DNA of 63,835 nucleotides, the filler included, from Reclinomonas americana ATCC 50394 (lineage: Eukaryota): NCBI GenBank assembly GCA_048213135.1. It is 8 parts of 3 records of this genome, joined end to end, with 100 filler letters (N's around TTAATTAATTAA, not from the genome) between each part and the next. Parts side by side here need not be neighbours in the genome. Positions count along the whole stretch, not along the records: positions 17,371 to 38,588 come from PS015179.1; positions 38,689 to 43,448 come from PS015180.1; positions 43,549 to 47,281 come from PS015180.1; 5 more parts are not named here. One strand, 5' to 3'. Shown here in pieces: positions 17,892 to 46,734 of the stretch; the first letter of the stretch is position 1; the number at the start of each line of letters is the position of its first letter. Both the position numbers and the translations under genes were made by a program. The notes under the pieces were generated by a model, which worked only from the letters and a program-made list of their open reading frames with translations, did not search any database and had not been told where the DNA came from.

Positions 17892-18953
17892 ATGATCACT
17901 GCCTCCACCGAGTACCACTGCAGGCGGCTGCCAGTTGGCGAGACGGTGAACTCCGTCGCCCTCACTCCCGACGGCCAGCACATTATCAGTGCTAGTGGCG
18001 GATTCCAGAGCAGGTCTCTCCGAGTGTGGTCGGTCACGAGTGGAGAGCAGGTGCAGAGCATCGCAGGGCACGAGGATACCGTGTGTTGCGTGTGCGTCAC
18101 TCCCGACGGGCAGCACGTTGTGAGCAGCGACAACTGCGGATCGGTGCGTCTGTGGTCACTGGCAAGCGGGGAAGAGGTGCGTCGATTCAAGGGCCACAGT
18201 GATTGGGTGGGAGCTGTCACGGTCACTGCCGATGGCCAGCACATTGTGACGGGCAGCTGGGATAGCGCGGTGCGCATATGTTCCATGGAGACGGGCGAGT
18301 TGGTGCGGTGGCTGCGAGGTCACATGGCAGCAGTGTCGTCGGTCGCTGTCACTCGCGACAACCGGCACGTGGTGAGCGGGAGTTGGGATGGAACGGTGCG
18401 GGTGTGGTCGCTTACAAGTGGGGAGGAACTCTGTCGCAACGAAAGCCTGTTCTGTCGAGTGTTTGCTGTGGCCATCACCCCCGATGGCCTGCACGTGGTG
18501 ACTGGAGGGGAGACCACAGTGGTGCGCGTTCTGTCGCTGGCAAGTGGCGAGGAGGTGCAACGACTGGAGGGACACACTCACAAGGTGACGTGTGTCGCCG
18601 TCTGCGCCAGTGGCCAGTTCGCGGTCAGCGGCAGCCTGGACGACACAGTGCGGCTGTGGTCGCTGGCGACGGGAGAGGAGGTGCGGCGGTTCGAGGGGCA
18701 CACGTCGCGCGTGTCGTCGCTCGCCATCACCCACGACGCGCACCGCATCGTCAGCGGCAGCTACGACAGCACCGTACGCGTGTGGTCCTCACCGCTCGCC
18801 CTCGCCCGCCACGAACTGCACTGCGCACGACTCGCCACGCTCGCCACACAGGAGATGCAGTCGGTTGACGAACAGCGCTGCCTAGTGGAGACCGTACTAC
18901 GCTGCTTCATCGTCGAAGAGGCGCAAGTTGTCGTGACTCGCTGCTGCTTATAA
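17892..18953 (+). CDS. Intronless 7-repeat WD40 protein with conserved C-terminal tail (family copy 1)
   Basis: Single ORF with seven GH..V..VAVTPDG.H.VSGS.D..VRVW-type repeats; tail LARHELHCARLA..RCLVETVLRCFIVEEA. Confidence 0.9.
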   Translation: MITASTEYHCRRLPVGETVNSVALTPDGQHIISASGGFQSRSLRVWSVTSGEQVQSIAGHEDTVCCVCVTPDGQHVVSSDNCGSVRLWSLASGEEVRRFKGHSDWVGAVTVTADGQHIVTGSWDSAVRICSMETGELVRWLRGHMAAVSSVAVTRDNRHVVSGSWDGTVRVWSLTSGEELCRNESLFCRVFAVAITPDGLHVVTGGETTVVRVLSLASGEEVQRLEGHTHKVTCVAVCASGQFAVSGSLDDTVRLWSLATGEEVRRFEGHTSRVSSLAITHDAHRIVSGSYDSTVRVWSSPLALARHELHCARLATLATQEMQSVDEQRCLVETVLRCFIVEEAQVVVTRCCL

Positions 18954-18966
18954 AACCCGTTCGTTT

Positions 18967-19372
18967 TTATCTCCTCGGAACACCATTCAAGTGCGGAAAC
19001 GCTGCAAACGTCGTCGTCAAGTGCTTTGCCTGCACCTGCACCGTCTCCAGCTGCGTCTCTGCCAAGCGAATGCACTCCTCGATTTCTGACGATCATGCAA
19101 TCAGCTGCTGCACGACCACACACACACATATATATACACACAAACGCACTGCACGGGCACGTCTCTCGCTGTGCTGCGCGGAACTCCCGTCGCGCCTTGG
19201 CCACCACAAACGCCCGTCGATTCTCCGTCGGCATTCCACGTGCCTCCTGCGCCATTCACAGTGAGCCTCTTCCCCCCTCCATGCATGTAGGCGACACCTC
19301 AGTATAAGAAGGTGGCAACGAAACGCGAAGAATGCCGCGGTAGAGCGTCAACACACGACTTCGCGAACTCAT
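18967..19372 (-). CDS. LYR-motif (Complex1_LYR) protein, 3 exons
   Basis: Spliced product MSSRSRVLTLYRGILR-EARGMPTENRRAFVVAKARREFRAAQRETCPCK-IEECIRLAETQLETVQVQAKHL...; the LYR tripeptide and downstream R.EF motif are present. Confidence 0.85.
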
Positions 19373-19454
19373 TCAAAGAAGAAGACTGACGAGTCCTGCG
19401 CGTGTTGTGTCCCTTCGTTTGCTGCTGAGAGGAATCGCGGGTACAGGGGAGCAC

Positions 19455-43952: not shown

Positions 43953-43983
<31 letters not shown>

Positions 43984-45030
43984 ACACACACACGCCCACA
44001 CATACCTCGCATGGGTTAATTGTCGAGCAGAGACACACGAGGGGTGAGAGGGAGAAACAGCTTCATTTACGAGCACACCAAGGCTCAAGAACATGCTGCA
44101 CGCAGAGAGAAGTATCTGAGGAGAGACAAGAGAGGCGAGAAAGAAACACAATGCTTCATCCACTCGCACAGCAAGGAGCGCTCATGCACCAAGTTCACAC
44201 GCAAATGAAGGCGAAGGAGAAGTATATGAGCAGAGTGACAAGAGGGGAAAAGGAGAGGCAACAGAAAAGCAACAGCTTCATCCACCTGCTACTGCGTGTG
44301 CCAGGATCACCAGGTACAGAAAAAAGAGAAGCACACATGGACTTGTTGGGCATAGCAACGAGAACCATGCCCGACAAAGCAAGACAAGCAGCTTCTCTCG
44401 CATAAGCAGCGCAAGCGGAGAGAAGAGGAAGAGAGAGAAACAAAGGGATTCAAGAGCGCTTCTTCACTAGAATCACACTTGCAAAAGAAGAAGAACGAGA
44501 AGCACTGTCGGCGATCGCAGCAGATGACAGCACACAGCAAGAATTCGACGAGCAGCTTTCTCTCTCACTTGTCCACGGCGAAAGCAGAGGGTTGGAGGAG
44601 AGAGAGAGAGGAGGGGCAACATCAACGAGTGCATGCAACAGTTTCACCCTGGCAGAAGAAGAAGGAGAACCATGGTACCATGCTCGACAAAAACGACAAG
44701 CAGCTCATTTCACATGCGCAGTGCAAGCGGAGAGAAGATAGGGAGAGAGCGAGGCACAAAAGGGCGTTCCTTCACCAGAATCACACTTACAGAAGAAGAA
44801 CGAGAAGCACTGTCGGCGGTCGCAATAGGTTGCAAGACACTGCAAGACGATGAGCAGCTTTCTCTCTCACTTGTCCACGGCGTAAGCAGAGGGTTGGAGG
44901 AGAGAGAGAGAGGCAACACCTACAAGTGCATGCAACAGTTTCACCCTGGCAGAAGAAGAAAGTGAACCATGCCCAACCAAAAACAAGATAACCAACTTCT
45001 CACGGTGGCGCTGCATATCGGTACGACCGG
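43071..45030 (-). repeat. Right arm of the long inverted repeat, interrupted by (GT)n and a contig linker
   Basis: Reverse complement of 38689-40483; subrepeat TCTCTCTCACTTGTCCACGGCG near 44559 and 44861. Confidence 0.9.
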
Positions 45031-45628
45031 TAGGGTTGTGGTGGTGGTTCCGCCGGAGATCTCTGTGCAGCTCCTCCTCTCCGCAAAGCTGACTCTTCCA
45101 CCTGCGCCCATCGCCCTGCAAGGCCAAACTCGCGATCGCGGTCAGCATGCCTCCAATTTCACACACACACAAACACTCTCTCACACATACACACTCTCTC
45201 TCACTTTCTCTCTCACGCACACGCACGCACAGCGTGCACGTACCCGGCAACGCGTACGACAGCGCTACCCACGGACTCCTGGGCGACTTGACATCGAGAA
45301 CGAATCGCTGGCCAGACTCCACGTGAGCATGACGCGATGATGTCGACAACTCTCAGAAACAGCGTTTTGTGGGAGAAGAACAGCTCTTGCTCGATCGCTG
45401 GTGGGCGATCACGTGACACCTGTCATGTGGTCATCATTGTGCGCTGTTTGGCAAAAGCGCGCGAGGGTGTTGGCGATTCGCACGTGTGGCTGTATCGCGC
45501 AAAGGAATGACACACAAACACAGCAAGAGTGGCTCTAACGGCTGCGTTGCTGTGCATGCGATTGTGTGTTGTATTATTGTGATTGTTGCGAGGGGCCAGG
45601 ACAACTTCTCGCATAAACTAACACACGC

Positions 45629-46734
45629 ATGGCTGTCAAGGTGAGCGTGTAGTGCTTGCGTGTGGTGTGCGCAGTGCATGATGGCAGAAGTTCGTGCAGG
45701 TACTGCGGGGACACTCTCATGAGCTGCATGCACTGGCAATAACACCTGAAGGTCAGTGCATTGTGATTGGCAGTCGGGACATGACTGTACGAGTGTGGTC
45801 ACTGTCAAGTGGCGAGGAAGTGCGCCAACTGAAAGGCCACACGTCGGATGTGTGTGCAGTGGCCGTTGCATCCGACGGCCAGCATGTTGTGAGCGGCAGT
45901 TGGGACAACACTGTACGAGTGTGGTCACTGGCCAGTGGCGAGGAGGTGCGCCGACTGGAAGGCCACGTCGGTTGGGTTTTTGCAGTGACAGTGACACCCG
46001 ATGGCCTACGTATTGTGAGTGGCAGTGCGGACATGACTGTGCGGGTGTGGTCACTGGCATGTGGCGAAGAGATGCGCCTGGAAGGGCACACTTATGGGGT
46101 ATTTGCAGTGGCAGTGACACCCGATGGCCAGCACATTGTGAGTGGCAGCTGTGACAATACTGTACGAGTGTGGTCACTGGCAAGTGGCGAGGAGGTTCGT
46201 CGACTAGAAGGCCACGCGGGTGGCGTGCTTGCAGTGGCCGTAACACCCGACAGCCAGCACATTGTGAGTGGCAGTTGTGACAAGACTGTACGAGTGTGGT
46301 CACTATCAAATGGCGAGGAGGTGCGCCGGCTGGATGGTCACACGAATTGGGTGCGTGCAGTCGCATTGACTCCCGATGGCCAGCACATCGTCAGTGGCAG
46401 TGACGACAAGACCGTACGAGTGTGGTCACTGGCGAGTGACGAGGAGGTGTGCCGGCTGGAAGGCCACACGGATGATGTGCGTGCAGTGGCTGTGACGCCC
46501 AATGGCCAACACATGATGAGTGGCAGTTCTGACAAGACTGTACGAGTGTGGCGCACAGTACGCGGACTGGCAAATGCCGAGCTGCAAGCTGTGCGGAATG
46601 CCCACCAAGCCATACTGGAGATCCAGCTGCCGTCCGATGCAGACGGCGACCGGCGGTGCCTCGTGGAGATTGTGCTGCGGTGCTTCGTCGGCGAAGACGC
46701 GGAAGCTATTCTCTTTCGTTCGCCGAGTTATTGA
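45629..46734 (+). CDS. 7-repeat WD40 protein with conserved C-terminal tail (family copy 4), one short 5' intron
   Basis: Exon 1 ATGGCTGTCAAG (45629-45640), GTGAGC intron ending at 45687 or 45699, then seven highly regular WD40 repeats; tail GLANAELQAVRNA..RCLVEIVLRCFVGEDA. Confidence 0.88.

What the first reader, a model, noticed from the sequence alone, without database searches (positions are those of the whole stretch)
17892..46734. Expanded WD40 family with conserved scaffolds and hypervariable surface positions: candidate diversifying recognition system
Seen: four paralogs (17892, 27259, 28597, 45629) each have exactly seven ~42-aa repeats. The frame (VAVTPDGQHIVSGS.D.TVRVWSLASGEEVRRLEGH) is nearly invariant, while the residues in GH-x-x-x-V-x and SGS-x-D-x change in almost every blade. 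In copy 4 these read TSDVC/W-N, VGWVF/A-M, TYGVF/C-N, AGGVL/C-K, TNWVR/D-K and TDDVR/S-K. Established: these positions form the top binding face of the propeller and are the ones diversified in Podospora HET-D/HET-E (HNWD) non-self receptors, which evolve by repeat shuffling. Inference: a stand-alone, NACHT-less variable-binder repertoire, possibly for pathogen or virus recognition.
Basis: partly seen in the sequence, partly recalled or inferred. Interest (0 to 1): 0.7.

Follow-up and report, generated by a model that had tools for sequence, protein, structure and literature searches.

The report
Variable-faced WD40 propellers, orphan tail
Four related genes of a little-studied protist encode seven-bladed ring proteins whose gripping face differs from blade to blade while an unnamed two-helix tail stays conserved, which looks like a set of adaptors for many targets; an immune role is plausible but not shown.

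Summary
The four genes are real and intact, each with seven WD40 blades. Six positions per blade are hypervariable and sit in the top-face loops, matching the selected sites of Podospora HNWD receptors.

Corrections: the window is stitched, so copy 4 lies on a different piece from copies 1-3.

Positive selection at the four HNWD-equivalent sites is significant overall (omega 1.66, p 0.002) but comes from copy 4 (2.7); copies 1-3 give 0.9-1.1. The signature is generic: 37 of 40 unrelated repetitive WD40 genes show omega above 1 there. Blades of copy 4 were homogenised within the gene, but identity is below HNWD levels and there is no NACHT domain.

Verdict: lineage-specific variable-face adaptors with an orphan constant tail; targets unknown. 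The scan noted this family before on many other pieces of this genome (unchecked).

The parts
17892..18953 (+). Copy 1: single-exon gene, 353 aa, seven WD40 blades (most diverged; blade 1 with a 3-residue insertion) plus tail
18786..18950 (+). Copy 1 C-terminal tail (two helices, short linker)
27259..28353 (+). Copy 2: single-exon gene, 364 aa, seven WD40 blades plus tail; AlphaFold2 model mean pLDDT 87, seven four-stranded blades
28144..28350 (+). Copy 2 tail: predicted helical hairpin (helices at tail residues 3-31 and 40-63, mean pLDDT 76); 14 columns invariant over six homologues
28597..29691 (+). Copy 3: single-exon gene, 364 aa, head-to-tail neighbour of copy 2 (243 nt after its stop); blades 1-4 are positionally closest to copy 2
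29485..29688 (+). Copy 3 tail, with a poly-Glu (GAG) run in the linker between the helices
45629..46734 (+). Copy 4, on a separate 3.7-kb piece: exon 45629-45640, inferred intron 45641-45699, exon 45700-46734; blades form one clade; carries the positive-selection signal
46552..46731 (+). Copy 4 tail
38589..38688 (.). 100-base artificial spacer: end of the piece (17371-38588) that carries copies 1-3
43449..43548 (.). 100-base artificial spacer: start of the piece (43549-47281) that carries copy 4

Best explanation
A lineage-specific family of two-part cytosolic adaptors. The seven-bladed propeller grips a target protein with its top face (positions 3-5, 7, 23, 25 of each blade); the conserved C-terminal helical hairpin plugs every member into one shared partner. 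New specificities arise by whole-gene duplication, by re-copying of 126-bp blade units inside a gene, and by bursts of diversifying selection on the top face, after which older copies settle (omega near 1 on the face, 0.14 on the scaffold). The most likely driver is conflict with foreign proteins (viruses, prey or intracellular bacteria), and the most likely job of the tail is to hand the captured target to degradation or signalling machinery, as F-box or SOCS boxes do, but with an unrelated module. Shown: architecture, site pattern, selection in copy 4, homogenisation in copy 4, tail conservation, narrow distribution of the tail. Inferred: binding, the shared partner, the foreign targets, any ubiquitin link.
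For: Top-face location. Four a-priori HNWD-equivalent sites: omega 1.66 against 0.22 elsewhere, p 0.002; per-site intervals above 1 at positions 5, 7 and 23. Copy 4 alone: omega 2.74, LRT 9.1; 0 of 40 neutral and 0 of 40 neutral-plus-recombination simulations reached the observed value. Other exposed loops (positions 13-16, 32-36) have omega 0.04-0.41. Copy 4 blades form a clade (ultrafast bootstrap 95) and share synonymous codons beyond composition (four-fold identity 0.66 against 0.45 permuted, 0 of 2000). Between most gene pairs, same-numbered blades are hardly more alike than different blades (copies 1-2: 0.606 against 0.612; copies 2-4: 0.661 against 0.656). Tail helices omega 0.20, LRT 104 against 1; the tail survives in P0006, whose propeller is far more degenerate (29% identity over the alignment). 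Five consecutive invariant residues in helix 2 cover all faces of the helix, more than a hairpin core needs (inference). A fifth member is expressed (EST-derived P0005). Constant adaptor end plus positively selected substrate-binding end is the pattern of C. elegans F-box genes (PMC8120010, passages).
Against: Without copy 4 the four sites give omega 1.25 (LRT 1.3) and copies 1, 2, 3 give 1.07, 1.01, 0.88, although power to see omega 2.5 was 24 of 25; between whole genes the four sites give 0.94. Position 25 is neutral (0.88). The fixed-site test falls to LRT 3.8 with F61 codon frequencies and 1.1 on a star tree; recombination gave 3 of 40 nominal false positives. The signature is common to repetitive WD40 genes (37 of 40 controls). 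The tail matches no F-box or SOCS model in Pfam. Neighbours are housekeeping genes (EFR3-like, Spo11/Top6A). No target, partner, allele or expression data for these four genes.
Confidence: 0.45

Rival explanations
1. Ordinary moderately repetitive WD40 paralogues: blades arose by repeat amplification, the top face is simply the least constrained surface, and each copy has settled on a cellular (self) partner. No defence role.
For: Omega about 1 in copies 1-3 with good power. PMC5587647 (passages) reports that about 2% of fungal and protist WD40 proteins have internal identity above 0.4 and that hotspot sites are the diverse ones in highly repetitive WD40s. Housekeeping neighbourhood.
Against: Copy 4 exceeds neutrality. 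Omega near 1 in old intact genes is above the 0.25-0.63 of the three controls with repeat identity 0.63-0.70. Earlier notes describe arrays of 3 to about 17 copies on many other pieces (unchecked), which is hard to square with fixed housekeeping roles.
Confidence: 0.27
2. Detached NLR sensors: the propellers derive from, or exchange blades with, NACHT-WD40 receptors of the same genome and act as their helpers or decoys, with the tail as the coupling piece.
For: Same site pattern as HNWD. Of 31 control N-terminal parts scanned, 10 carry a STAND/NACHT-type or NWD1-type domain and 2 more a TIR domain, so this repeat style often belongs to NLR-like proteins. Earlier notes report many NACHT-WD40 genes in this genome, one beside such an array (unchecked).
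Against: No NACHT gene in the scanned frames of this window. None of the 79 control loci has the tail (the one weak hit is antisense to WD40 repeats). Repeat identity is below the HNWD range.
Confidence: 0.13
3. The tail is only a self-association or capping element: the proteins form multivalent binders that sequester targets with no downstream effector.
For: Helix 1 has a small-residue, heptad-like pattern and the tail is a generic antiparallel hairpin.
Confidence: 0.12
4. Decaying or selfish repeat copies without function.
For: Copy 1 is degenerate (3 complete H-S/T-D-W tetrads in 6 scored blades); copy 4 sits beside a dispersed non-coding repeat.
Against: All four frames are intact; scaffold omega 0.14 and tail omega 0.20; a relative is expressed.
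Confidence: 0.03

Closest known systems
WD40 sensor domains of Podospora anserina HNWD/NWD NLRs (HET-D, HET-E, HET-R); PMC1805685, PMC12222747 (passages read)
   Same: 42-aa repeats; paired variable sites flanking a conserved residue in the d-a loop and b-c turn (their codons 7/9 and 25/27, here 5/7 and 23/25, same spacing); diversifying selection; within-gene homogenisation in copy 4.
   Different: No HET or NACHT domain; one propeller of 7 blades, not 10-12 repeats; repeat identity 0.58-0.76 nt within genes against over 80-100%; no evidence of ongoing exchange between genes; position 25 neutral; an added conserved C-terminal hairpin.
Moderately and highly repetitive WD40 proteins of bacteria, fungi and protists (Hu et al. 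2017, PMC5587647; PDB 5yzv, 2ymu)
   Same: Best structural matches (5yzv TM 0.98 to target, rmsd 0.9 A, 40% identity; 2ymu 42%); consensus-like blades; diversity at top-face hotspot sites.
   Different: Those are mostly domains of larger kinase, TIR or STAND proteins; here a multi-copy stand-alone family with its own tail.
F-box-WD40 and WD40-SOCS-box substrate receptors; C. elegans F-box expansion (PMC8120010, passages read; WSB-type layout recalled)
   Same: Constant adaptor module under purifying selection joined to a variable substrate-binding domain, in a lineage-specific expansion.
   Different: The tail matches no F-box or SOCS model, and is predicted as a long two-helix hairpin; no ubiquitin-ligase link shown.

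Membership tests
WD40 seven-bladed beta-propeller | Seven WD40 repeats folding into a closed propeller | tested here: met
   Pfam PF00400 x7 in each of 4 proteins; model pLDDT 87, Foldseek TM 0.98 to 5yzv
HNWD/NWD fungal NLRs | NACHT NTPase and N-terminal effector domain in the same protein | tested here: not met
   Only WD40 families hit the four proteins (best 25 shown each); no STAND family in 141 other frames scanned; copy 3 starts 243 nt after copy 2 stops. Copy 4's piece is only 3.7 kb and its first exon is inferred.
HNWD/NWD fungal NLRs | High internal conservation (over 80% within gene, PMC12222747; 85% over 100 aa, PMC4986451) | tested here: not met
   Within-gene mean nucleotide identity 0.58, 0.69, 0.66, 0.76; best pair of all 0.84
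HNWD/NWD fungal NLRs | Diversifying selection at four top-face codons | tested here: inconclusive
   Met for positions 5, 7, 23 overall and for copy 4; not met for position 25 or for copies 1-3
HNWD/NWD fungal NLRs | Concerted evolution within and between genes | tested here: inconclusive
   Within gene: clear for copy 4, weak for the others. Between genes: longest exact shared stretch 25 nt; one candidate old tract in copy 2/copy 3 blade 4 (84%); no formal conversion test
HNWD/NWD fungal NLRs | Allele-specific non-self recognition and cell death | not testable with these tools
   No alleles, no assay
Moderately repetitive WD40 proteins (Hu et al. 2017) | Pairwise repeat identity at least 0.4 and below 0.7 | tested here: met
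   Minimum pairwise amino-acid identity 0.45, 0.42, 0.52 in copies 2-4; copy 1 falls to 0.35 (my alignment, not their exact method)
F-box proteins | F-box motif recognised by Pfam models | tested here: not met
   0 of 6 tails hit an F-box model at E up to 10 (HMMER filters drop weak matches)
F-box proteins | F-box three-helix fold | tested here: inconclusive
   Tail model is a generic hairpin; best Z 8.5, no family stands out
F-box proteins | Binding to Skp1 | not tested
   No Skp1 sequence was at hand from a tool
SOCS-box / BC-box proteins | BC-box pattern L-x3-C-x3-hydrophobic followed by a cullin box (pattern recalled) | tested here: not met
   The invariant Cys has a variable residue at -4 and an invariant Glu at +4; 0 of 6 tails hit a SOCS model
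SOCS-box / BC-box proteins | Binding to Elongin B/C | not tested
   No Elongin sequence was at hand from a tool

The most novel reading that the evidence does not exclude
An antibody-like intracellular repertoire in a deep-branching protist: dozens to hundreds of single-propeller binders, renewed by re-copying blades inside each gene and by selection on six residues per blade, all wired through a new hairpin module to one effector (possibly an E2-like protein carrying the same hairpin, giving cullin-independent targeting of foreign proteins for destruction).
Probability: 0.17. Interest if true: 0.82.

Novelty: new variant of a known kind. Interest (0 to 1): 0.45.

Why it matters
Little is known about how free-living protists recognise viruses or intracellular bacteria. 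A NACHT-less propeller repertoire with one constant, unnamed tail gives a direct handle: find what the tail binds and the pathway follows. The family is also a natural set of small binders on a regular scaffold. The control matters too: omega above 1 on the top face is a general mark of recently amplified WD40 repeats (37 of 40 controls), so what is special here is the stand-alone layout and the tail, not the variable sites.

Tried and rejected
Genome-wide family count: no whole genome is held for this window, so family size rests on 4 genes here plus unchecked earlier notes. Sequencing runs: none was listed for 26700-34700; no evidence either way, and no reads were laid. Exact look-up of copies 1-3: not in the protein collection. 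Tail searches without relatives: protein region search, 85 candidates, none scored; metagenome contigs, 312 pattern matches, none confirmed; viral contigs, 20, none; prokaryote genomes, 7, none; PDB sequences, 0; ESM Atlas, no usable hit twice; profile search of longer proteins returned only P0006 among the 8000 candidates scored; search of shorter proteins listed 120 of 483 hits, of which only P0005 has the tail. No further tail or family repeat elsewhere in the window. Fold search of the tail: generic helical hairpins only, best Z 8.5, Foldseek none at E 0.001; this excludes nothing. Two-copy complex prediction of the tail: no answer, score 0.01 against a mark of 0.32, alignment not used; no evidence either way. 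A diversity-generating-retroelement mechanism was considered and dropped: by inspection, the variable codons do not keep a fixed third base as adenine-specific mutagenesis would (criterion recalled), and no template repeat appears in the self-comparison. Clustering of all four copies: rejected, because of the spacers. Seven paper searches listed no paper on this family; only listings were seen for most, and no supplements were read.
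Full report
WHAT IS THERE. The window is eukaryotic and stitched: seven 100-base spacers cut it into eight pieces. Copies 1-3 (17892-18953, 27259-28353, 28597-29691) lie on piece 17371-38588 among housekeeping genes, an EFR3-like gene and Spo11/Top6A. Copy 4 (45629-46734) lies on a separate 3.7-kb piece. Copies 1-3 are single open frames. Copy 4 has an in-frame stop at 45679-45681 and needs a 59-nt GT-AG intron after its fourth codon (inferred from splice consensus). 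Each protein has seven WD40 repeats. The model of copy 2 is a confident seven-bladed propeller (mean pLDDT 87), closest to regular bacterial propellers (5yzv, 2ymu, 40-42% identity).

THE VARIABLE SITES. I aligned 27 of 28 repeats by codon (copy 1 blade 1 left out; five codons of copy 3 blade 5 masked in the model fits). Numbering from the G of GH, positions 3, 4, 5, 7, 23 and 25 hold 9-12 residues each (2.5-3.4 bits); the rest at most 1.9 bits. In the model they fall in the d-a loop, the start of strand a and the b-c turn. PMC1805685 (passages) places the four selected HNWD codons, pairs 7/9 and 25/27, in these same loops with the same spacing, so I took 5, 7, 23 and 25 as an a-priori set. 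The 'nearly invariant' frame is overstated: mean identity between blades is 0.47-0.68 at protein level.

SELECTION. With my own codon-model code, the full set gives M1a/M2a LRT 17.5 and M8a/M8 LRT 11.2; the four a-priori sites have omega 1.66 against 0.22 (p 0.002); per-site intervals exclude 1 at positions 5, 7 and 23 but not at 3, 4 or 25. M1a/M2a stays at 9.6-18.2 over four other trees or codon-frequency models, but the fixed-site LRT drops to 3.8 with F61 and 1.1 on a star tree. The signal comes from copy 4: omega 2.74, LRT 9.1. Without it omega is 1.25 (LRT 1.3), and copies 1, 2, 3 give 1.07, 1.01, 0.88. For copy 4, 0 of 40 neutral and 0 of 40 neutral-with-recombination simulations reached the observed statistic, though 3 of the latter passed the nominal threshold. 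For copies 1-3, omega 2.5 would have been seen in 24 of 25 simulations, so the near-neutral value is informative. Across whole genes the four sites give 0.94, the scaffold 0.14.

CONTROL. A metagenome scan with copy 4 gave 79 loci of other repetitive WD40 genes, none with the tail. Forty of the 79 had at least six parsable repeats; at most 12 were used per gene. In 37 of 40 the same four sites have omega above 1, in 27 significantly, median 2.5; several loci are near-duplicates, so they are not independent. Omega rises with repeat identity (Spearman 0.66). Of 31 N-terminal parts scanned (of 35), 10 carry STAND/NACHT-type or NWD1-type domains, 2 TIR alone, 2 a kinase alone, and 17 nothing besides WD40. 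So top-face diversification is a general mark of recently amplified WD40 repeats, as PMC5587647 notes qualitatively (passages), and often belongs to NLR-like proteins. The four genes here are typical to weak by this yardstick.

HOW THE REPEATS EVOLVE. Between copies 1-2 and 2-4, same-numbered blades are no more alike than different blades (0.606/0.612; 0.661/0.656); only the adjacent copies 2 and 3 keep clear positional likeness, in blades 1-4. All seven blades of copy 4 form a clade (bootstrap 95) and share position-specific synonymous codons (four-fold identity 0.66 against 0.45 permuted; smaller excesses in copies 1-3). Serine codon class is fixed per column in all repeats, pointing to one ancestral unit. 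This supports re-copying of blades within a gene after duplication. It is not the fast HNWD exchange: within-gene identity is 0.58-0.76 against over 80% (PMC12222747, passages), and the longest exact stretch shared by two genes is 25 nt.

THE MISSED PART. All four end in a 55-69 aa tail. A profile search of 1.84 billion representatives found two homologues: P0005, from a Reclinomonas americana EST in EukProt, and P0006, an unnamed 394-aa protein with a degenerate propeller. The window's organism is therefore probably a jakobid or relative; I did not determine it. Fourteen columns are invariant over the six tails, among them five consecutive residues of helix 2. The helices have omega 0.20. The tail is predicted as a helical hairpin (pLDDT 76 alone; helix 2 below 50 in the full-length model). 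No F-box or SOCS model matches.

MECHANISM. Most likely a two-part adaptor: variable face for targets, constant hairpin for one shared partner, renewed by duplication, blade re-copying and episodic selection (0.45). The logic parallels C. elegans F-box genes (PMC8120010, passages) without membership. Foreign targets and a degradation role are inferred. Rivals: ordinary paralogues with a relaxed face (0.27), detached NLR sensors (0.13), self-associating binders (0.12), decaying copies (0.03).

EARLIER NOTES. The scan reported this kind of gene on many other pieces of the same genome, in arrays of 3 to about 17 copies, plus an E2-like protein with the tail and many NACHT-WD40 genes. I could not fetch that DNA, so these are leads. 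One note holds that the repeats are kept alike by protein constraint alone; my synonymous-site test contradicts this for copy 4 and is closer to it for copy 1.

NOVELTY. Seven paper searches listed no description of the family or tail; subscription papers and supplements were not seen. The diversification pattern is known; the stand-alone layout with an orphan constant tail is the new part. New variant of a known kind, interest 0.45.

Noticed in passing
window 17271-17370, 38589-38688, 43449-43548, 47282-47381, 49176-49275, 57411-57510, 60512-60611: Seven identical 100-base spacers with stops in all frames join eight separate pieces; adjacency across them means nothing.
   Followed up: yes
window 43715-44960 and 38946-40277: A dispersed, apparently non-coding element of about 1.3 kb with roughly 300-bp subunits lies upstream of copy 4 and, inverted at 80% identity, at the start of the neighbouring piece, whose first 32 bases match 44999-45030 exactly.
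   Followed up: partly
window 32673-34036 (-): Intron-split Spo11/Top6A gene (Pfam PF04406, PF21180), a possible meiosis marker in this protist.
   Followed up: no
window 35900-37700 (+): Gene with a hydrophobic N-terminal stretch and weak carbohydrate esterase 2 N-terminal hits (PF17996, just under the curated cut-off); may be a secreted enzyme of bacterial type.
   Followed up: no
window 19968-20625 and 62492-63210: Non-coding tandem arrays with units of about 140 bp and 112-122 bp; the first lies between copy 1 and the EFR3-like gene.
   Followed up: no
window 3520-7032, 7495-8241, 20686-21390, 54997-55683, 59188-60069, 61076-62152 (+): Sec23/24-family gene, LRR gene, EFR3-like gene, an unrelated divergent WD40 gene, an ankyrin gene and an IF-2/eIF5B-type gene.
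   Followed up: no
L015:1582-2880 and L026:1312-3126: The two kinase-only WD40 controls have omega below 1 at the top-face sites (0.25, 0.46), unlike most STAND- or TIR-linked controls; they also have the oldest repeats, so age and function are confounded.
   Followed up: partly
L012:3644-3880: Weak tail-profile hit (E 5e-4) in a short frame among WD40-like repeats read on the other strand; judged spurious.
   Followed up: yes
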